Assembly (NCBI GenBank): GCA_018066125.1 | Contig: JAGHSA010000007.1 | Location: 3,308-27,307 of the forward strand | Direction of reading: 5' to 3' | From: Candidatus Cryptobacteroides onthequi | Lineage (GTDB): Bacteria > Bacteroidota > Bacteroidia > Bacteroidales > UBA932 | Length of the DNA stretch: 24,000 nt | Shown: positions 12,001-24,000 of the stretch, piece after piece | Numbering within the stretch: the stretch's first letter is position 1 | Layout: every line of letters begins with the position of its first letter | Program-made: the position numbers and the translations under genes | The notes under the pieces: generated by a model | The model's input: only the letters and a program-made list of their open reading frames with translations | What the model was told of the DNA's origin: nothing | Databases searched by the model: none

Positions 12001-14580
12001 ATGAAAAGAACTGTCGCAACAATAAGAAAAGCCCTTTTCACAGCTGCGCTGGCACTAGTCGCATCAGCAGCGCCCGCACAGCCGTGGCAACCGTCAGAAT
12101 GGCCTGTCCTGAAGCAATATGACAGCAGTCACCTCCGCCAGATTGCACTCCCCCTCGGAGGCATAGGCACGGGAGAGGTGTCGCTGGGAGGCAGGGGTGA
12201 GCTCCGCGACTGGGAGATCATGAACGTGCCGGCCAAGGGATTCAGCACCACGACCAAGGGCAACGACGCTCCCCTCTTCGCCATATATACGCGCCGCAAT
12301 GGCGGGGAGCCTCAATCAAAACTCCTCGCCGGTCCGCTCTACCCCGACGAATACCTCCACTATGAGGGACGCCCGGCGAACCACCACGGGTTCCCGCGCT
12401 TCGGCGAAGCCTCCTTTGATGCCGCCTACCCATTCGGGCAGGTGAACCTGTCCGACAAAGACATGCCGGTCAAGGTCCGCATCAAGGGATTCAATCCCTT
12501 CATCCCCGGCGACTCCGAAGCGAGCGGCCTGCCGGTAGCCGTGCTTTCGTATGAAGTCACCAACACCAGCGGCACGGAGGTCGAAGTGTCCGTCTGTGGC
12601 GCGATACATAACTTCATCGGCAAGGACGGGAGCAAGTTCAGGACCGACTGGAAGGGTGATTTCATACCCACAGGAGCATCCGGGAACGTGAATGAATTCC
12701 GGTCGGAATCCGGCCTGAACGCGATATATTTCTACTCGGAGGGAGTCGACTCTCTCGACACAGCGTGGGGCAACATGACGCTATCTACCGACAGCGAGGG
12801 CGACATTTCATACAGGACATTCACCACCGACAACAACTGGAGCAACTCAGCCCTCAATTTCTGGGACGATTTCAGCGACGACGGTGCCATATCGAACCCA
12901 CTCCCCAACCCACGCTGGTCCATCGGAGGTGCGGACGACCCTATGGGCGCACTCGCCGTGCGCAAGACACTTGCCCCTGGAGAAAGCCGCTGCTTCAATT
13001 TCTACCTGACATGGAACTTCCCCAACAGGAAATCTTGGTCGGAGTCCATCGTAGGAAACTGGTACAGCCAGAGATATCCGGACTCCTGGGAATCAGCGAA
13101 AGAAATCATCCCACAGATACCGTCGCTGGAGAAGCGCACGCTCACGTTTGTGAACGCGCTGCTGTCCTCATCATACCCGGAGGAAGTCAAGGAAGCAGCC
13201 CTATTCAACCTCTGCGTCCTCCGCTCACAGACAGTATTCCGCATCGCGGACGGACACATGATGGGCTGGGAAGGCATCATGGACAGATTCGGATCCTGTG
13301 CCGGAAGCTGCACGCATGTATGGAACTATGAGGTGGCCACGCCTTTCCTTTTCGGCGACCTTGCACGCACCATGAGAGATGTGGAGTTCCACTATGCACT
13401 CGGAGAGGACGGCGGGATGGACTTCCGCGCGAATCTTCCACTTGGAGCTATGCCTGACAAAAGCGTAGCGGCCGACGGGCAGATGGGATGCATCATGAAG
13501 CTCTACCGCGAATGGCAGCTCAGCGGCGACGATGACTTTCTTGCCGACTATTGGGACGCCTGCAAGAAGGCGCTCTCATTCGCATGGGCAGAGAAAGGAT
13601 GGGACGGCAACTGCGACGGAGTGATGGAAGGATCCCAGCACAACACCATGGACGTCAATTATTTCGGCCCCAATCCACAGATGGCGTTCTGGTATCTCGG
13701 TGCTCTCAGGGCCGCAGAGGAGATGGCAGTCGCTATGAAAGACAAGGCCTTTGCGGCCAAATGCCACAAACTCTTCACCGCGGGCAGCGCCTGGGTGGAC
13801 GCCAATCTCTTCAACGGAGAGTATTACGAGCACAAGATCACCGATCCCGACACATTTGAATTCCTCCCAGAGGGCTCCGACCGGGTACCGGCATTCCAGC
13901 TCGGCAAGGGCTGTCTCGTGGACCAGCTGGTGGGCCAGTACATGGCTCACATCTGCGGCCTCGGATATCTGGGCGACAGGGAGCATATACGCACTACATT
14001 GGAAAGCATCATGAGGTACAACTGGAGGGACAGCTTCGAGGGGCACTTCAACAACATGCGCTCATACGTCCTCGCGGACGAATCCGGCCTCCTCATGGCT
14101 TCATGGCCGAAAGGGAGGCTCGACGTGCCGTTCCCATATTTTCCGGAGGCAATGACTGGGTTTGAGTACTGCGCCGCTGTGGGAATGATCTATGAGGGCA
14201 TGACGGACGACGGACTGAAGTGCATCAGAGCCATACGTGACAGATTCGACGGCAGCAAGCGCAACCCTTTCAGCGAGCCGGAGTGCGGTCACCACTATGC
14301 AAGGTCCATGGCAAGCTGGGCATCAGTCATCGCGCTCAGTGACTTCCACTGGTCCGGTGTGGACGGCAGCTTCCGCATCACCGGAAAGCCAGGCACGTGG
14401 TTCTGGAGTAACGGTGCGGCATGGGGTACGGTCACAGTATCAGACACAAAAGCGGCCCTCAAGGTCATTGAGGGCCGGCTTAAGTTGAACAGCGTCCAGA
14501 TCGGAGAGAAGATCATCAAAGTCAAAAAGGGCACGATTCTCTCCGGGGATGGCGTAAATGAGCTGGTCTACGGCAACTGA
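12001..14580 (+). CDS. GH116-family glycoside hydrolase (GBA2-type beta-glucosidase / glucosylceramidase-like), exported
   Basis: A signal peptide is followed by the N-terminal domain signature LPLGGIGTGEVSLGGRGELRDWEIMN typical of GH116. The long C-terminal (alpha/alpha)6-like DUF608 region and the length (859 aa) also fit. Confidence 0.75.
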   Translation: MKRTVATIRKALFTAALALVASAAPAQPWQPSEWPVLKQYDSSHLRQIALPLGGIGTGEVSLGGRGELRDWEIMNVPAKGFSTTTKGNDAPLFAIYTRRNGGEPQSKLLAGPLYPDEYLHYEGRPANHHGFPRFGEASFDAAYPFGQVNLSDKDMPVKVRIKGFNPFIPGDSEASGLPVAVLSYEVTNTSGTEVEVSVCGAIHNFIGKDGSKFRTDWKGDFIPTGASGNVNEFRSESGLNAIYFYSEGVDSLDTAWGNMTLSTDSEGDISYRTFTTDNNWSNSALNFWDDFSDDGAISNPLPNPRWSIGGADDPMGALAVRKTLAPGESRCFNFYLTWNFPNRKSWSESIVGNWYSQRYPDSWESAKEIIPQIPSLEKRTLTFVNALLSSSYPEEVKEAALFNLCVLRSQTVFRIADGHMMGWEGIMDRFGSCAGSCTHVWNYEVATPFLFGDLARTMRDVEFHYALGEDGGMDFRANLPLGAMPDKSVAADGQMGCIMKLYREWQLSGDDDFLADYWDACKKALSFAWAEKGWDGNCDGVMEGSQHNTMDVNYFGPNPQMAFWYLGALRAAEEMAVAMKDKAFAAKCHKLFTAGSAWVDANLFNGEYYEHKITDPDTFEFLPEGSDRVPAFQLGKGCLVDQLVGQYMAHICGLGYLGDREHIRTTLESIMRYNWRDSFEGHFNNMRSYVLADESGLLMASWPKGRLDVPFPYFPEAMTGFEYCAAVGMIYEGMTDDGLKCIRAIRDRFDGSKRNPFSEPECGHHYARSMASWASVIALSDFHWSGVDGSFRITGKPGTWFWSNGAAWGTVTVSDTKAALKVIEGRLKLNSVQIGEKIIKVKKGTILSGDGVNELVYGN

Positions 14581-14589
14581 GTCTGCGAT

Positions 14590-16923
14590 TTAGAGTCTCA
14601 CTGACACAGGGACACCTGCCTTTGCCTTGACTGTCTTGACTTTGCCTCCGCAGCGGACACGCACCTTCGATGCATTGTCTGCCGTGATGGCGGCACATGT
14701 CAGCTTTCCGTCCTTCCATGCGATGTCCACGGTGTAGCCGCCGCGCGCACGGAGTCCCTTGATCTCACCGCTCGTCCATGAAGACGGAAGTGCAGGGAGG
14801 AGCACAATCTCACCGGAATGTGACTGAAGCAGCATCTCCGCAATGCCGGCACTGCCACCGAAGTTGCCGTCGATCTGGAATGGCGGATGGTTGTCGAAGA
14901 GGTTAGGGAGAGTGGACTTGGAGAGAAGCGCCTGTACATTGGATCCTGCCTCCTCACCGTCCATAAGACGGGCGTAAAAGTTGATCATCCACGCACGGCT
15001 CCATCCTGTATAAGATCCCCTGCGGGTCTCAGGATCCTCGTTGAACTTGCGGCGGCGCTCGATGGTGCGCTTTGCAGCAGTAAAGAGATCTGAGTCAGAT
15101 GATGTGATGGTGGTACCGGGATAGAGTCCGAACAGGTGGGACACATGTCTGTGACCCGGCTCTTCCTCTTCATAGTCCTCGATCCATTCCTGGATGGTGC
15201 CGTTTGCGCCTATGCGCAGAGGAGGGAGCTTGGCGTATGCAGCCTTGACCTCCTTGCAGAAATCAGCATCTACACCGAGAATGCCGGCAGCCTTGACGAT
15301 GGCGTTGAAGAGCTCCATGGTGATTTCGACATCCATGGTAGAACTGTATGTGATCCTGTATTCCTCGCCGTCAGGATGGATGTAGTGGTTCTCCGGAGAG
15401 TTGGAAGGAGCAGTCACGAGATGACCGTTCTTATCCTCTACCATGAAAGAGAGAAGGAACTCTGCAGACTCCTTCATGCAAGGGTATGCCACGTTCCTGA
15501 GGTACTCCAGATCTCCTGTGAAGAGATAGTGCTCCCACTGCTGGAGAGTGAGCCACGAGCCGGCAATAGGGAAAGTACCCCAGTCCACGGCGTCGCTGAT
15601 GGATGTATGGCCGAAGAGATCGGACACGTGGTTGACTGTCCATCCCTTGGCTCCGAAGGTCTTGGATGCGGTGACGCGTCCAGGTACACGGATGGCGTCT
15701 ATCCAGTGCGAGTATGGGAGTGCGGTCTCGGAGAGATTGCAGATCTCTGCCGGCCAATAGTTCATCTGGATATTGATGTTGGTATGGTAGTCAGAGTTCC
15801 ATGGTGCTTCCATGTCCTTGCACCATATGCCCTGGAGGTTGGCAGGAAGTCGTCCAGGAGCCCTTGAACTGCACATGAGCAGGTACCTGCCGAACTGGAA
15901 ATAGGTAGCGATGAGTGACAGGTCAGATGCACCTTCCTGCACGGCCTTGAGTCTCACGTCTGTAGCAACGTCGCTGAGATCTGAGTCTCCGAGAGTGAAT
16001 GACACGCGGTCGAACATGGACGCGAACTCCTGGAGGTGTCTGCTCTTGACAGAATCAAAGTCTCCGGCTGCGGCTATCTGGGCATTGCAGAGTGCCGCAG
16101 GGTCGATGCTGCGGTCGAAGTTGAGCTTGTCTGCATTGTAGTCGGTATTCATCGCTATGTAGAAGGTGACTTCATCTGCACCTTCGACATAGAAGCAGTT
16201 GTTTACAGCAGTCATGCTGCCACCTTTGCAGAAGCCCTTTATGAGACCGGCGAACTTCATGTGCAGGCCCGGAGGGCAATTCTTTCCGTTCGGAAGATCG
16301 ACTATCTGTCCTGAGATGGCCAGCGCATCCTTTCCTGCAGGACATGCATACGCATCCTGCTCACGGGTGTAGGTCATCTTGAAGTTCAGCCTGCCCGGCT
16401 TGTCCGCAGACATCCTTATCACGAGGATATCATCTGGAGCAGATGAGAACACCTCACGGGTGATGGTGGCGCCCCTGCTGGTGAAGACAGTCTTTGAGAC
16501 GCCTGTGGCAAGATCAAGCTCCCTGCGGTAGCTTTCCACGCCTGCACCGCCGATATGGTCGATCTTGAGGTCTCCGAATGACTGGTACGAGCGCACTCCC
16601 ATGACTTTGCCCATGAGCTTCGCCCTCGCAAGATCCCTTGCCTTCATTATCTGATCATCAAGCAGGAGCTTCTGAATCTCCGGGATCCACTTGGCAGCAT
16701 CGGCGTCACTGTCTGTCGGGCAGCCTGCCCAGAGGCTCTCCTCGTTGAGCTGAATGTCTTCATTCCAGCTGCCGCCATATACCATCGCACCTATGCGGCC
16801 GTTGCCGACCGGAAGGGCTTCATTCCAATTCCGTGCCGGCTGTGCATACCACAGGACATTCTGTGCCTGTGAAGAGACAGAAAACAATGACACGAGTATC
16901 GTCGCAAGAATAAACCTTTTCAT
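14590..16923 (-). CDS. GH95-family glycoside hydrolase (alpha-L-fucosidase / alpha-L-galactosidase type), exported
   Basis: A signal peptide is followed by the GH95 N-terminal signature [28 protein letters not shown]...[11 protein letters not shown]. The length is 777 aa. Confidence 0.9.
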
Positions 16924-16947
16924 ATCTGATAATTTATGATCTGTATT

Positions 16948-17838
16948 CTACAATCTCACCTTCGCCATCACAGGGCAGTGATCGGATACGAATCTTCCGT
17001 CCGGACTCTTCTCCGGCATGATCTCATAATACGAGCATGAGCCCTCACTTATGAAGATATAGTCGATGATGCCTGGACGCATATTCTCAGGGATGTACTT
17101 GGCCATGCTTTCAAGGCCGCCGAATCCATGGTAGCTGGCGATGCCGGTTTTCCTCTCCTTTGCGATCTCGAAGGTATGGAAGAGGCCTGAGTTCTTGACG
17201 TGCTGAATGTCTGCAGACTCCTTTCCTGAATTGAAGTCGCCGGTGATCACCATAGGGCAGTCACCGCCGATTTCCTTCGCCTTCCTGCACAGGAGGTTCA
17301 CTCCTTCGCGGCGTGCCACTCCCCCGACATGATCGAGATGGGTATTGACGAAGAAGAAGCGCTTTCCTGTAGATTTCTCCTCGAGGAATGCCCAGGTCGC
17401 GATGCGGATGCAGGCTGCATCCCATCCGAGACTAGGGACATCAGGTGTCTCACTGAGCCAGAAATTGCCGCACTGCACAGCCTTGAAACGGCTCTTGCGG
17501 TAGAAGATGGCAGAATACTCTCCGTCTTTCTTTCCGTCCTCGCGGGCAACGCCTACAGTCTTATAGCCCTTGAGGGCCTTTTTCATGTACTGGCGCTGAT
17601 AGTGGAGGCACTCCTGTGTACCGATGATGTCCGGGTCGGCTGAAAGGATTTCAGCGACAAGTGCATCCTTTCTGTTGTCCCACCTGTTGATGCCGTCCTC
17701 CGGCTCGTTGTAGCGGACATTCGATGTGATTACTGTAAGATCGAGTCCGAGTTTCTCTGTTCCGGGCTCCTGGGCTGATGCCATGAACTGTCCCGCTGAC
17801 AGGATGGCAACTGCGGCGATGATGAACTTTTTCTTCAT
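16948..17838 (-). CDS. Endonuclease/exonuclease/phosphatase (EEP) superfamily phosphoesterase, exported
   Basis: A signal peptide is present, along with the EEP motifs SNVRYN...DIIGTQE, VNTHLDH, ITGDFN and a C-terminal SDHCPV. The start lies 1 nt after the stop of the upstream GH97-GDPD gene. Confidence 0.85.
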   Translation of the reverse strand: MKKKFIIAAVAILSAGQFMASAQEPGTEKLGLDLTVITSNVRYNEPEDGINRWDNRKDALVAEILSADPDIIGTQECLHYQRQYMKKALKGYKTVGVAREDGKKDGEYSAIFYRKSRFKAVQCGNFWLSETPDVPSLGWDAACIRIATWAFLEEKSTGKRFFFVNTHLDHVGGVARREGVNLLCRKAKEIGGDCPMVITGDFNSGKESADIQHVKNSGLFHTFEIAKERKTGIASYHGFGGLESMAKYIPENMRPGIIDYIFISEGSCSYYEIMPEKSPDGRFVSDHCPVMAKVRL

Positions 17839-17839
17839 A

Positions 17840-20617
17840 TCAATATTCGTTTACTACCTTAATGAGACGGTCAGGATAGTTGGAAATGATGGCCTCGACC
17901 TTGAGGTCCAGCAAGCGGCGGATCTCGTCAGGATCGTCCACGGTCCAGGTAACGACCTTCATGCCCTTGGCATGTGCCTTCTGCATGAATTCTGCATCGA
18001 CATTGCCATGCTCAGGGCTGACCCACTGAGGGATGAAGTCCACCTGGCTCATGTTGAGATCGAAATCCGTCTCATATCCTTCCCAGAGGAATGAGAGGAT
18101 GTGGCCCGGGTATTTCTTGTTGATGTAGTTGAGCGCTCTCTCATCGAAACTCTGGATGATGAGCCTGTCACCGAGGTTGAATGATTCGAGTACCTCCATG
18201 CAGCGGTCGGTGAACTCATGGTATTCCGGCCAGAGTTCGCCCTCACCCTTCTCCGGAGAGCTCTTGACCTCGATGTTGTATTTCATCGGTGCAAGACCAT
18301 TGGCCTTTGTGTATTCCTCTACTGCCGCGATGACCTCTGAAGCAAGAGGCTTCACAGCAGGGATGCATTTCTTCTCAGGCCAGCCCGGATTGTACTTGTG
18401 GCCGACATCCCATTTCACGATTTCGGAGTATGGAAGCTGGTAGAGATATACTTTCGGGTCTTCAGATTTCACCTCGGTCCTGTCGGGACGTGTGGCATAT
18501 CTGTGATGGAAGTAAGGGTCGTGTGAAAGAACCACCTTTCCGTCCTGAGTGACGCAGAGGTCCATCTCGAGAGTGTGGACTCCGAGCCTGACTGAGTTGA
18601 GCATGGCCTCGAGCGACTCCTCTGGATAGAGTCCCATACCTCCGCGATGCGCCTGGATATCGACGATCTTCCTCTTGAGGACAGCGGCAAAGCCACCGTT
18701 TCGGGCCATGCCGACAGTAAGAGAGGATGAAGCCGTGACGTCTTCGAAATTGCGGCGGTAATCCATGGCGATCCTGTCGGCCACAGGGCCGTCGGAGAAT
18801 GACTCCATGATCCACTCGCTTCCCTCTCCGAGGAATGTGAGATCCACATCGATGCTGCGTGCCTGGGAGTTGTTGAGTCCCGCAATGTACCATACATCAC
18901 CGGCCCTCTTTGCCACAATGTAGTGCTCGCCCACCTTTCCGGAGAGAACCACGGTCTCGTCCCATTCCACAGGGACAGCAGTCATGAAGTCCCTGCAGTC
19001 CGGCCACATGTCGTAGCGGCAAGGGTTGTCTGCAAGCATCTGGAGACCAGTCTCGAATGCAACGATCTGGGCAAGCTGCGAAGCCTTGGTGCCGACAGCA
19101 GGAGTCTCAGGACGTCCGCCGCTGTACTTTTCAGGCTGCTTGCATATCATCATGCCCGGAGTGAAGTCCATAGGGCCGACGGCATTGCGGATGTATGGCT
19201 GGAACAAGGTGTTGTCCGGCCTGCAGTTGCTGCAGAATTCAAGGCCCCTGACACCCTCGAAGGTGAGGACATTCGGATAGCGGTACTCAAGTCCTCTCGG
19301 TGAGTATGCGCCATGGAAGTCCACGAAGATATGATGCTCGGCAGCAGTCTTGGCTACACGCTCATAGAAGTCGACCATCCACTGGTCCTGTCTGTTCATG
19401 AAATCGATCTTGACACCCTTGATGCCCCAACCCTCAAAGACCTCGAAGAGGTCCATGTGGTGTTCGACGGTGAGCCAAGGCAGCCAGAGGATGACTCCCA
19501 CGCCCTTTGAGGCTGCATAGCTGATGAGTTCGTGGATATGCACCTCAGGATTGGTCTTGAACGGGTCACGGGTATCAAGAGCCCAGCCTTCATCGAGAAG
19601 GATGTACTTCACCCCATTCTTCGCTGCGAAGTCAGTGAAATACTTGTAGGTTTCCAGATTGATGCCGCTCTTGAAATCGACGCCCTGGCCGTATGGAATG
19701 CCGTTGAGCCAGTCCCATGTGGTCTGTCCCCTTCTGATCCATGACAGGTCTTCAAGCTCGGTCTCAGGCGCAAGCCTCATAGGCATGCGGTTCTCGGCGA
19801 GCTTGCGGTCGTCGCTGGTGATGAGCATGTATCTCCACGGATAGCTGCGGGTGCCTGATGTCTTGGCGATCCAGTCGCTGACCTCGAGGAAGAACACATC
19901 CCTGTCGTCATCGTCCTCGGTCTTGAGCGGGCTGATAGTATGATACGCAGCGAAAGAGCTGCCGCCCACAGGCTTGAGAAACATTCCCGGATAATCCTTG
20001 AGGTCAAACTCGCTGATGAGTATCTTCTGCGCGCTGCCCTCTGCAAGTACCGGAAGCTCGCAGAGCATGCTCTCTGCTGACAATCCGGATACCGGAACCC
20101 TGGCGTAAAGCTCCTCGCAGGCGGTCTTGACGGTGTCACACTGCTGTACCACAACAGAAGATGCAGACACGACATTGAAGCCTGCCTTCTCCTTCATGAC
20201 CTCGACTTCACCTGGAAGACTGGTCTCGATGCGGTATGCAACTCCGTCATCATATACACGCCACAATACCTTGAAACCGTCCTTGAATGTAAGGGTCAGG
20301 AGATTGTAGCTGTTGTCGACCTCGGCGTACTTCAGCTTGATGACAGGCTGCACAGTCTGACGCACCTCCTGCCTCTTCACATTCTTCACGACCGGCTTCA
20401 CTCCGAGAGTCCTGTCACGGAGTGTAAGGGCGATGTCGTTGTCCTTCATGATCAGTTCGCCATGAGATGTGACATCGTAGCGGATGTCTTCCCCGACCGT
20501 GACCTTTACCGATGTCTGCCCGTCAGGAGACTGGACATCGTATGTCTTGGCCTTCTGTGCCCATGATGACATGGAGAGCACAGAGATGAAAAACGCTGAA
20601 AGAAGTATCTTTTTCAT
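17840..20617 (-). CDS. Bifunctional fusion of a GH97 glycoside hydrolase (residues ~1-650) and a glycerophosphodiester phosphodiesterase (GDPD) domain (residues ~651-925), exported
   Basis: The GH97 part shows a signal peptide, then YDVQSPDGQTSVKVTV..., GVKYILLDEGW, GIKGVKIDFMNRQDQWMVDFYERVAKTAAEHHIFVDFHGAYSPRGLEYRYPNVLTFEGVRGLE, and the typical C-terminal NGGFAAVL. With no linker it continues into the GDPD signature IVDIQAHRGG...YPEES...EMDLCVTQDGKVVLSHD (about 17843..18667). The frame is uninterrupted. Confidence 0.85.
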   Translation of the reverse strand: MKKILLSAFFISVLSMSSWAQKAKTYDVQSPDGQTSVKVTVGEDIRYDVTSHGELIMKDNDIALTLRDRTLGVKPVVKNVKRQEVRQTVQPVIKLKYAEVDNSYNLLTLTFKDGFKVLWRVYDDGVAYRIETSLPGEVEVMKEKAGFNVVSASSVVVQQCDTVKTACEELYARVPVSGLSAESMLCELPVLAEGSAQKILISEFDLKDYPGMFLKPVGGSSFAAYHTISPLKTEDDDDRDVFFLEVSDWIAKTSGTRSYPWRYMLITSDDRKLAENRMPMRLAPETELEDLSWIRRGQTTWDWLNGIPYGQGVDFKSGINLETYKYFTDFAAKNGVKYILLDEGWALDTRDPFKTNPEVHIHELISYAASKGVGVILWLPWLTVEHHMDLFEVFEGWGIKGVKIDFMNRQDQWMVDFYERVAKTAAEHHIFVDFHGAYSPRGLEYRYPNVLTFEGVRGLEFCSNCRPDNTLFQPYIRNAVGPMDFTPGMMICKQPEKYSGGRPETPAVGTKASQLAQIVAFETGLQMLADNPCRYDMWPDCRDFMTAVPVEWDETVVLSGKVGEHYIVAKRAGDVWYIAGLNNSQARSIDVDLTFLGEGSEWIMESFSDGPVADRIAMDYRRNFEDVTASSSLTVGMARNGGFAAVLKRKIVDIQAHRGGMGLYPEESLEAMLNSVRLGVHTLEMDLCVTQDGKVVLSHDPYFHHRYATRPDRTEVKSEDPKVYLYQLPYSEIVKWDVGHKYNPGWPEKKCIPAVKPLASEVIAAVEEYTKANGLAPMKYNIEVKSSPEKGEGELWPEYHEFTDRCMEVLESFNLGDRLIIQSFDERALNYINKKYPGHILSFLWEGYETDFDLNMSQVDFIPQWVSPEHGNVDAEFMQKAHAKGMKVVTWTVDDPDEIRRLLDLKVEAIISNYPDRLIKVVNEY

Positions 20618-20660: not shown

Positions 20661-24000
<3,340 letters not shown>

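What the first reader, a model, noticed from the sequence alone, without database searches (positions are those of the whole stretch)
17840..20617. Direct in-frame fusion of a GH97 glycosidase to a GDPD glycerophosphodiesterase in one 925-aa exported protein
Seen in the sequence: the normal GH97 C-terminus (...ARNGGFAAVLKR) runs with no linker or stop into a complete GDPD domain (K-IVDIQAHRGG...EMD...LSHD..., junction near 18667). The frame stays open for another 275 codons, so this is not a trivial read-through. Established knowledge: characterised GH97 enzymes are alpha-glucosidases or alpha-galactosidases and are normally stand-alone proteins of about 650-730 aa. GlpQ-type GDPDs act on glycerophosphodiesters, and the B. 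subtilis GlpQ teichoicase is reported to be blocked by glycosyl decoration. Inference: tethering an alpha-glycosidase to a GDPD fits a substrate where an alpha-linked hexose sits on or beside a glycerol-phosphate diester. Examples are alpha-Glc/alpha-Gal-decorated poly(GroP) teichoic acid, kojibiosyl/galactosyl-glycerol LTA anchors, or glycosyl-glycerophospho head groups. The GDPD motif reads PEES rather than the usual PEN(T/S), a small deviation at a metal-site neighbour.
Basis: partly seen in the sequence, partly recalled or inferred. Interest (0 to 1): 0.65.

Follow-up and report, generated by a model that had tools for sequence, protein, structure and literature searches.

The report
Rare GH97–GDPD gene fusion in phosphoglycan PUL
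A gut Bacteroidales bacterium really does make one exported protein that joins an alpha-galactosidase-type sugar-cutting enzyme to a phosphodiester-cutting enzyme, but this is a young, single-lineage fusion of two genes that relatives keep separate in the same phosphate-rich sugar-harvesting gene cluster.

Summary
Window 17840..20617 (-) is one 925-aa ORF: signal peptide, a complete GH97, then a complete GDPD from residue 651, with no linker. The GH97 carries the retaining-type motifs (KIDF, HG). It is not an artefact: 11 distinct full-length variants lie on separate contigs, and both halves are under purifying selection (dN/dS 0.07 and 0.06).

The fusion is rare. I found no other in the 120 best hits of two searches of 5.8 billion proteins, in 200 genomes of the genus, in 400 of the order, or among close relatives in GTDB species genomes.

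It is also young. The GDPD nests among stand-alone lipoprotein GDPDs. The GH97 groups with a GH13-adjacent GH97 whose site is empty in this genome.

Context is a 14-gene SusC/D locus rich in phosphoesterases, with three other glycosidase families (GH92, GH2, GH95). Relatives keep GH97 and GDPD as separate genes in the same locus. 'PEES' is a clade-wide signature, not a deviation.

The likely role is periplasmic trimming of alpha-Gal caps and phosphodiester substituents on an imported mannose-containing phosphoglycan. The teichoic-acid reading is not excluded but is not favoured by context. Earlier scan notes describe this locus type in other genomes. Interest is modest.

The parts
17840..20617 (-). 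GH97-GDPD fusion gene (925 aa plus stop)
   Evidence: ORF; Pfam domains; 11 variants in its cluster
20555..20617 (-). Signal peptide, residues 1-21 (MKKILLSAFFISVLSMSSWAQ); no lipobox Cys
   Evidence: Sequence, judged by eye. This is the fastest-diverging part compared with L001.
18674..20536 (-). GH97 module: GH97_N 28-283, catalytic barrel 290-549, GH97_C 551-648. Retaining-type motifs are KIDF (D405 nucleophile), FHGA (G436 at the SusB E508 column) and TFEGVRGLE (E454, E460).
   Evidence: motif rule from Gloster 2008, PMC2670981
18665..18670 (-). Fusion junction: K650 (last GH97 residue) joined to I651 (first residue of the GDPD module)
   Evidence: P0121 ends ...AAVLKRK*; G194's GDPD reads C-APKDEY-VVDVQAHRGG
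17843..18667 (-). GDPD module, residues 651-925: H657 R658, PEES 665-668, E684/D686, H699, E783/K785
   Evidence: Pfam; 3ch0 alignment at 1e-48; motif positions
16948..17838 (-). EEP-fold phosphatase gene (296 aa) with its own signal peptide. It starts one base after the fusion's stop codon and is present here but absent at this position in L001 and L066.
   Evidence: (3g6s 4e-55; 4c1r/BT3783 2e-45)
14590..16923 (-). GH95 gene, last gene of the operon
   Evidence: 77% identical to G194's GH95
20661..23288 (-). GH2 (LacZ-type) gene immediately upstream of the fusion
   Evidence: 81% identical to G194's GH2
23285..24000 (-). PI-PLC-like lipoprotein gene (306 aa). It runs to coordinate 24205, beyond the window.
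   Evidence: Reconstructed; PDB 1gym 3e-17; no Pfam hit
12001..14580 (+). GH116 gene convergent on GH95. The same adjacency occurs in another fusion-bearing contig (L066).

Best explanation
This is a genuine, recently formed gene fusion. It encodes a soluble exported enzyme with two activities: a retaining-type GH97 glycosidase (most likely an alpha-galactosidase) joined directly to a GDPD phosphodiesterase. It belongs to a 14-gene SusC/SusD polysaccharide-utilisation locus that carries six or seven phosphoesterase domains plus GH92, GH2 and GH95.

Shown: relatives encode the same GDPD as a stand-alone lipoprotein, and encode a GH97 as a separate gene of the same locus.

Inferred origin: in this lineage a GH97 gene from a GH13-adjacent locus was relocated to sit directly upstream of the GDPD gene. 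The GH97 stop codon, the spacer and the GDPD's roughly 26-codon lipoprotein signal were lost.

Inferred mechanism: in the periplasm the GDPD half removes a phosphodiester-linked substituent (a glycerol-phosphate-type or other alcohol-phosphate cap) from imported oligosaccharides or glycolipid head groups. The GH97 half removes terminal alpha-galactosyl caps. The neighbouring BT3783-like EEP and the other phosphatases clear phosphomonoesters. GH92, GH2 and GH95 then trim the exposed mannose, beta-galactose and fucose.

The tether itself is best read as a tolerated or mildly useful by-product of operon shuffling. It delivers both activities in 1:1 amounts through one signal peptide. It is not evidence that the two scissile bonds are adjacent.
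For: One open frame with complete domains. Retaining motifs KIDF and HG plus conserved E454 and E460. The GDPD H-R / E-x-D / H-D / E-x-K set aligns to 3ch0 at 1e-48. dN/dS against L001 is 0.073 for GH97 and 0.055 for GDPD. Eleven variants lie on separate contigs. In the GDPD tree the fused pair (100/100) nests in a 99/99 clade of stand-alone lipoprotein GDPDs. In the GH97 tree the fused pair plus GH13-adjacent P0121 form a 100/100 clade, sister to the clade of PUL-tail GH97s. The GH13 locus on G000 contig C61 is an empty site. G194 has the unfused order GH2-GDPD-GH95-GH92-EEP-GH109-GH97, with 66-81% identical orthologues and the same upstream PUL. The EEP matches 4c1r/BT3783, a sugar phosphatase that works with a GH92 (PMC4978465).
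Against: No activity, expression or localisation data exist. The NCBIfam equivalog for retaining alpha-galactosidase is missed (567 bits against an 800-bit cut-off), so the GH97 specificity could differ, for example beta-L-arabinopyranosidase. The GDPD's substrate and leaving group are unknown. The PUL's target polymer is unidentified, and the BACON/beta-helix surface protein has no solved relative. The direction of the GH97 relocation rests on a single GH13-adjacent comparator. Inter-domain geometry is untested because the AF2 run was spoiled by a misalignment.
Confidence: 0.7

Rival explanations
1. The tether is adaptive and reports on the substrate: the two active sites cooperate on an alpha-hexosyl residue sitting on or next to a glycerol-phosphate diester. 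Candidate substrates are alpha-Gal/alpha-Glc-decorated poly(GroP) teichoic acid, or LTA built of galactosyl-glycerol-phosphate repeats.
For: The zero-length linker suggests a fixed geometry. Both halves are conserved since the fusion. GDPD relatives include teichoic-acid-active enzymes in the PDB list (5t91; phage GP-PDE proteins 9euf), but only at E-values of about 1e-10 to 1e-12. From memory, type II and III LTAs alternate alpha-Gal and GroP, which would suit an enzyme with both activities.
Against: This is a single young fusion within a family that otherwise keeps the genes separate. In this GDPD clade the fusion partners are phosphatases, not glycosidases. The PUL context is dominated by GH92 mannosidases, a PI-PLC, a BT3783-like EEP and an AlkP, and none of these is expected for teichoic acid. 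The GDPD is not a GlpQ equivalog.
Confidence: 0.15
2. The locus is chiefly an organophosphate-scavenging system, a Bacteroidota 'Pus'-type SusCD system. On this reading the fusion serves phosphate harvest from glycosylated phosphodiesters such as lipid head groups, rather than carbon catabolism of a polysaccharide.
For: The conserved core is SusC/D, a beta-helix lipoprotein and a 648-aa AlkP with a GDPD_2-like N-terminal part. This has the same architecture as F. johnsoniae PUSII: PusCD2, PhoA1 (pf00245+pf13653) and FI/FII polygalacturonase-like lipoproteins, all induced by phosphate starvation (PMC8115612). Six or seven phosphoesterase domains sit in one locus.
Against: The locus also holds five or six glycoside hydrolases and a ROK sugar kinase, which fits sugar catabolism. 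Regulation was not tested. This reading complements the best explanation more than it excludes it.
Confidence: 0.25
3. The single ORF is an artefact (assembly chimera or sequencing frameshift), or a decaying fusion with one dead half.
For: The genome is a MAG of 85% completeness in 75 contigs. Raw reads could not be inspected.
Against: Eleven distinct full-length variants come from independent assemblies. The junction is identical in L001 at 92% nt identity. dN/dS is about 0.06-0.07 in both halves. The catalytic motifs are intact.
Confidence: 0.02

Closest known systems
BT1871 / BtGH97b, retaining alpha-galactosidase of Bacteroides thetaiotaomicron (PDB 3A24, 5E1Q)
   Same: Full-length three-domain match at E = 1e-120. 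Shares the retaining motifs (K/M)(I/V)DF and HG and the conserved Ca/acid glutamates.
   Different: About 650 residues of homology, followed here by a 275-residue GDPD. Scores below the NCBIfam equivalog cut-off (567 against 800 bits), so identical specificity is not established.
Stand-alone lipoprotein GDPDs of gut and rumen Bacteroidales (for example G194 = Horse_feces75 MAG075, P0240); nearest solved structure 3CH0
   Same: 74-80% identical over the whole module. Same PEES signature and catalytic residues. In G194 the gene occupies the same PUL position, after GH2 and before GH95.
   Different: These proteins have their own lipoprotein signal with a 5-8-residue tether. Here GH97 replaces that signal, so the module is predicted to be soluble rather than membrane-tethered.
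EEP-GDPD (~575 aa) and Metallophos-GDPD (~745 aa) fusion proteins of Bacteroidales
   Same: The same GDPD family appears as a C-terminal module that starts at VVDV(E/Q)AHRGG, directly after a carrier domain that supplies the signal peptide. They occur in the same PUL type: GH92-PA14, AlkP, ROK, SusC/D.
   Different: The partner is a phosphoesterase, not a glycosidase. These are separate clades in the GDPD tree and are uncharacterised.
B. thetaiotaomicron yeast-mannan PULs with GH92 BT2629 and EEP phosphatase BT3783 (Cuskin 2015, PMC4978465)
   Same: SusC/D locus that combines GH92 with a BT3783-like EEP sugar phosphatase to deal with phosphorylated mannose glycans.
   Different: No GH76, GH125, GH99 or GH38 was seen here. 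This locus adds GDPD, PI-PLC, AlkP, NPP, Metallophos, GH97, GH2 and GH95.
Flavobacterium johnsoniae PUSII phosphate-utilisation system (Lidbury 2020, PMC8115612)
   Same: SusCD-like pair, an AlkP carrying a GDPD_2 signature, and a beta-helix lipoprotein.
   Different: PUSII contains no CAZymes. Phosphate regulation is unknown for this locus.
B. subtilis GlpQ teichoicase / E. coli GlpQ and UgpQ
   Same: GDPD fold and catalytic motif set.
   Different: Only distant similarity (5t91 at 6e-12; PRK09454 65 bits against a 264-bit cut-off). The motif is PEES rather than PEN(T/S). The genomic context is different.

Membership tests
GH97 (CAZy), retaining subgroup | Three-domain architecture: GH97_N, (beta/alpha)8 catalytic domain, GH97_C | tested here: met
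   Pfam PF14508, PF10566 and PF14509 are all above cut-off. Full-length alignment to 3A24.
GH97 (CAZy), retaining subgroup | (K/M)(I/V)DF motif carrying the Asp nucleophile, where inverting members have K(T/S)GY | tested here: met
   K403-I-D405-F. It aligns with the Asp that is mutated to Gly in 5E1Q. Rule from PMC2670981.
GH97 (CAZy), retaining subgroup | HG instead of HE at the SusB Glu508 column | tested here: met
   F434-H-G436-A
GH97 (CAZy), retaining subgroup | Conserved equivalents of SusB Glu526 and Glu532 (Ca ligand and acid/base) | tested here: met
   E454 and E460 in TFEGVRGLE
Retaining alpha-galactosidase equivalog (NCBIfam NF053844, BT1871 type) | Score at or above the curated 800-bit cut-off | tested here: not met
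   567 bits. Same subfamily, but not an equivalog.
Retaining alpha-galactosidase equivalog (NCBIfam NF053844, BT1871 type) | Alpha-galactosidase activity | not testable with these tools
   Needs an enzyme assay.
GDPD (PF03009) | Full-length domain match above the gathering score | tested here: met
   121 bits against a 23.6-bit cut-off, profile positions 1-243 of 244
GDPD (PF03009) | Catalytic and metal residues: HR, E-x-D, HD, E-x-K | tested here: met
   H657/R658, E684/D686, H699/D700 and E783/K785, aligned to 3CH0. The assignment of roles is from memory of GDPD structures.
GlpQ/UgpQ glycerophosphodiesterase equivalogs (NF006989, NF008354) | Score at or above the curated cut-off | tested here: not met
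   65 bits against 264, and 24 bits against 254
Polysaccharide utilisation locus (PUL) | Adjacent SusC-like and SusD-like genes, co-oriented with CAZyme genes | tested here: met
   SusC is at L033 16197-19325 and SusD at 14337-16181, on the same strand as the fusion with short intergenic gaps
BT3783-type EEP sugar phosphatase (applies to the neighbouring gene 16948-17838) | EEP fold with close similarity to BT3783 (4C1R/3MPR) | tested here: inconclusive
   4c1r scores 1.8e-45 but over residues 34-211 only. The best full-length match is the uncharacterised 3g6s.
Pus-type phosphate utilisation system (F. johnsoniae PUSII) | Induction by phosphate starvation | not testable with these tools
   Only the architectural similarity is shown.

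The most novel reading that the evidence does not exclude
The fusion marks a dedicated gut pathway for a substrate class with no described bacterial catabolic route. The candidates are alpha-galactosylated, mannose-containing glycosyl-inositol-phospho-lipid head groups (plant or fungal GIPC, or GPI-type) and galactosyl-glycerol-phosphate polymers. In this reading the rigidly joined GH97 and GDPD act in alternation on neighbouring glycosidic and phosphodiester bonds, which would make it the first natural glycosidase-phosphodiesterase tandem enzyme.
Probability: 0.12. Interest if true: 0.65.

Novelty: new variant of a known kind. Interest (0 to 1): 0.38.

Why it matters
The fusion works as a natural 'Rosetta stone'. 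It links a retaining GH97 to an uncharacterised clade of GDPD phosphodiesterases with a PEE(S/T) signature. That clade is widespread in herbivore-gut Bacteroidales and always sits in phosphoesterase-rich SusC/D loci. It gives a convenient single protein for testing what these loci degrade: phosphodiester-decorated mannose, galactose and fucose glycans or glycolipid head groups. It is also a cleanly documented case of how PUL genes are shuffled, replaced by paralogues and fused. The fusion itself is a one-lineage event built from known domains, so on its own it does not change understanding of either family.

Tried and rejected
I relied instead on 11 independent variants and on L001.

2. AF2 model of the full-length protein: pTM was 0.57 and residues 455-649 had pLDDT below 50. 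Inspection showed that MAFFT had slid the C-terminal ~120 residues of the stand-alone GH97 rows under the GDPD columns, which left residues 553-650 without depth. The model says nothing about inter-domain geometry. The tool returns no coordinates in any case, so I did not spend the second job.

3. Literature searches for GH97 with glycerophosphodiester, for PUL with GDPD and GH92, and for Bacteroid* GIPC/PLC degradation found nothing relevant.

4. The BACON/beta-helix surface protein next to SusD has no solved relative, so it gave no clue to the target polymer.

5. I considered that EEP-GDPD fusions might be the direct ancestor of the module. The GDPD tree places them in a separate clade, and the window's EEP is only 39% identical to their EEP half, so I rejected this.

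6. I considered that G194's PUL-tail GH97 might be the direct ancestor of the fused GH97. The GH97 tree rejects this.

7. I considered an assembly or frameshift artefact and rejected it.
Full report
OBSERVATION

Window 17840..20617 on the minus strand is a single 925-aa ORF. Pfam finds GH97_N (residues 28-283), the GH97 catalytic domain (290-549), GH97_C (551-648) and a full-length GDPD domain (657-916). All four are far above their cut-offs. The DNA at the junction reads straight through...GGFAAVLKRK(650)-I(651)VDIQAHRGG, with codon 651 starting at nt 18667. The closest stand-alone GH97 (P0121, 78% identical) ends ...GGFAAVLKRK followed by its stop codon. The closest stand-alone GDPD (G194) begins MKALKILASASLAFLLVTAC-APKDEY-VVDVQAHRGG. 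The fusion therefore joins the very last GH97 residue to the first beta-strand of the GDPD. What has been lost is the GH97 stop codon, an intergenic spacer and about 26 codons of lipoprotein signal.

NOT AN ARTEFACT, NOT DECAYING

The protein's 90%-identity cluster contains 11 distinct 925-928-aa sequences on separate contigs from NCBI, ENA and Logan assemblies. Contig L001 is 92% identical in DNA and has the same junction.

Nei-Gojobori dN/dS between the window and L001 is 0.073 for the GH97 part and 0.055 for the GDPD part. Both halves have therefore been under purifying selection since the fusion.

WHAT THE TWO HALVES ARE

The GH97 half matches BT1871/BtGH97b (3A24, 5E1Q) at 1e-120 over its whole length. 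Gloster et al. 2008 (PMC2670981) give the diagnostic motifs. Retaining members have (K/M)(I/V)DF and HG, while inverting members have K(T/S)GY and HE. This protein has K403-I-D405-F and H435-G436, plus the universally conserved glutamates E454 and E460. It is the retaining, alpha-galactosidase-type subgroup. It still scores below NCBI's equivalog cut-off (567 against 800 bits), so the exact specificity is open.

The GDPD half keeps H657/R658, E684/D686, H699 and E783/K785. It is most like the structural-genomics GDPD 3CH0 (1e-48) and only distantly like GlpQ (5t91, 6e-12).

'PEES' is not a private deviation. PEE(S/T) occurs in 81 of 81 EEP-fused and 80 stand-alone relatives. PEN(T/S) characterises the more distant metallophosphoesterase-fused forms and some stand-alone forms.

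HOW RARE IS THE ARCHITECTURE

Two searches of about 5.8 billion clustered proteins were run, one scored on the GDPD part and one on the full length. Each listed a single GH97+GDPD protein among its 120 best hits, namely P0001, which represents the window protein's own cluster.

- In 200 genomes of the same genus, only the window's genome matches across residues 1-925.
- A junction-spanning query against 400 genomes of the order (236 genera) found only one-sided matches.
- All 12 close relatives among the GTDB species genomes cover residues 1-~650 only.

Distant, independent fusions cannot be excluded by these top-hit lists. The titles of related records point to uncultured Bacteroidales from horse faeces and rumen, Candidatus Cryptobacteroides-like.

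WHERE IT CAME FROM

The GDPD module occurs in four architectures:
- a stand-alone lipoprotein of about 300 aa (the most numerous, and the closest at 74-80% identity);
- EEP-GDPD of about 575 aa;
- Metallophos-GDPD of about 745 aa;
- this GH97-GDPD.

In a maximum-likelihood tree of 58 modules, the two fused sequences form a 100/100 pair. That pair nests inside a 99/99 clade of stand-alone GDPDs that includes G194. The EEP-fused and Metallophos-fused modules form separate clades.

G194 (Horse_feces75 MAG075) carries the unfused state. On one strand it has ROK, SusC, SusD, BACON/beta-helix, GH92-PA14, NPP-PA14, AlkP, PI-PLC, GH2, GDPD, GH95, GH92, EEP, GH109 and GH97. Its orthologues are 62-81% identical to the window's. 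Two further species have GDPD-GH95-GH97 (L047) or GH95-GH97 (L048).

The fused GH97 is not derived from that 'PUL-tail' GH97. In a GH97 tree it groups 100/100 with P0121, and this pair is sister to the 100/99 clade containing all PUL-tail copies. P0121 lies between a GH13 gene and a sigma-factor-like gene on contig L032. The window's genome has the collinear locus on contig C61, at 81% and 75% nt identity on the two sides. There the GH97 is missing, leaving only about 26 nt and a hairpin. L032's GH97 DNA matches the fusion on C1 instead.

The most economical reading, which is an inference, is as follows. The PUL-tail GH97 was lost together with GH92 and GH109. A GH97 from the GH13 locus was relocated directly in front of the GDPD, and the two genes fused.

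Shuffling inside the PUL continues within the fusion-bearing lineage. The EEP gene follows the fusion in the window. At that position it is absent in L001 and L066, where GH95 follows directly. In L066 the EEP sits between GH92-PA14 and NPP instead.

CONTEXT AND LIKELY FUNCTION

Extending the contig shows one co-directional locus: SusC, SusD, BACON/beta-helix, ROK, GH92-PA14, GH92, NPP-type phosphodiesterase-PA14, a 648-aa protein with an AlkP domain and a GDPD_2-like N-terminal part, Metallophos-PA14, a PI-PLC homologue (1gym, 3e-17), GH2, GH97-GDPD, EEP and GH95. A convergent GH116 follows.

The EEP resembles 3g6s and BT3783 (4C1R). BT3783 is the Mg-dependent sugar phosphatase that works with GH92 BT2629 on phosphorylated high-mannose glycans (PMC4978465).

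More distant species keep a core of SusC/D, the beta-helix protein, GH92-PA14, AlkP, ROK and EEP-GDPD. GH97, GH2, GH95, PI-PLC and NPP are additions of the G000/G194 clade. The core architecture also resembles the phosphate-starvation-induced PUSII of F. johnsoniae (PMC8115612).

I therefore read the fusion as a periplasmic trimming enzyme with two activities. The GDPD removes a phosphodiester-linked substituent. The GH97 removes alpha-galactosyl caps from imported mannose-containing phosphoglycan or glycolipid head-group fragments. The phosphatases and exo-glycosidases then complete the job.

The domains, motifs, selection, origin and context are shown. The substrate, the order of steps and any cooperation between the two sites are inferred.

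It gets no support from a context dominated by mannosidases, a PI-PLC and a Man-6-P-phosphatase-like EEP.

WHAT FAILED

The AF2 model (pTM 0.57) was compromised by a misalignment of residues 553-650, so it cannot address whether the two active sites face each other.

No paper links GH97 with GDPD or describes this PUL type.

Earlier notes of this scan describe the same PUL type in other genomes. I used them only as leads.

VERDICT

This is a real, intact and selected GH97-GDPD fusion. It is a new domain architecture built from known families. It is confined to one young lineage and is explained by operon shuffling within a conserved, uncharacterised phosphoesterase-rich PUL. Interest is modest for the fusion itself; the PUL type is the more interesting object.

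Noticed in passing
window 17840-20617 compared with L001 278-3058: Divergence along the fusion gene is mosaic. Nucleotide identity is 74-89% in the first 600 nt, 97-99% from nt 900 to 1950, then drops to about 90-92% right after the domain junction (nt 1951); the downstream GH95 is 96% identical. Synonymous divergence (dS) is 0.27 for the GH97 part and 0.53 for the GDPD part. This suggests recombination among strains, with one breakpoint at or near the junction.
   Followed up: partly
window 16868-17852; L001 3043-3123; L066 289-1185: The EEP gene is a presence/absence and position polymorphism within the fusion-bearing lineage. It follows the fusion in the window. At that position it is absent in L001 and L066. 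In L066 it sits between GH92-PA14 and NPP.
   Followed up: partly
G000 contig C61 ~21673-21700 (L060): This looks like an empty site. Between the GH13 gene and a sigma-factor-like gene, a relative (L032) carries the GH97 closest to the fused one. This genome has only about 26 nt there, with a GC-rich hairpin (AAAGGGTGGCTCCGAAGCCACCCTTT).
   Followed up: yes
window 23285-24000, continuing to 24205 on the contig: A 306-aa lipoprotein with no Pfam hit is a homologue of Bacillus PI-PLC (1gym, 3e-17). Its stop overlaps the GH2 start codon (ATGA). It is conserved in G194 (69% identity), L064 and L066.
   Followed up: partly
L033 1643-3589 (contig C1, upstream of the window): A 648-aa protein has an AlkP domain at residues 320-647 and an N-terminal ~300 residues with only a GDPD_2 signature. 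This is the same pf00245+pf13653 architecture as F. johnsoniae PhoA1 (Fjoh_3249). It is conserved across all PULs of this type that I examined.
   Followed up: partly
P0285, P0289, P0317, P0326-P0340 (hits): A further set of GDPD relatives of about 380-396 aa carries an extra ~90 residues of unknown nature. This may be another carrier architecture for the same module.
   Followed up: no
G014:C10:11700-12512 (L014): A same-genus GDPD relative (54% identity) contains an in-frame TAA inside the match. It may be a pseudogene or a split gene.
   Followed up: no
window 12001-14580 and L066 15167-17737: The convergent GH116 gene abutting GH95 is conserved in another fusion-bearing contig. The adjacency is therefore stable in this lineage, although G194 lacks it at that position.
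   Followed up: partly
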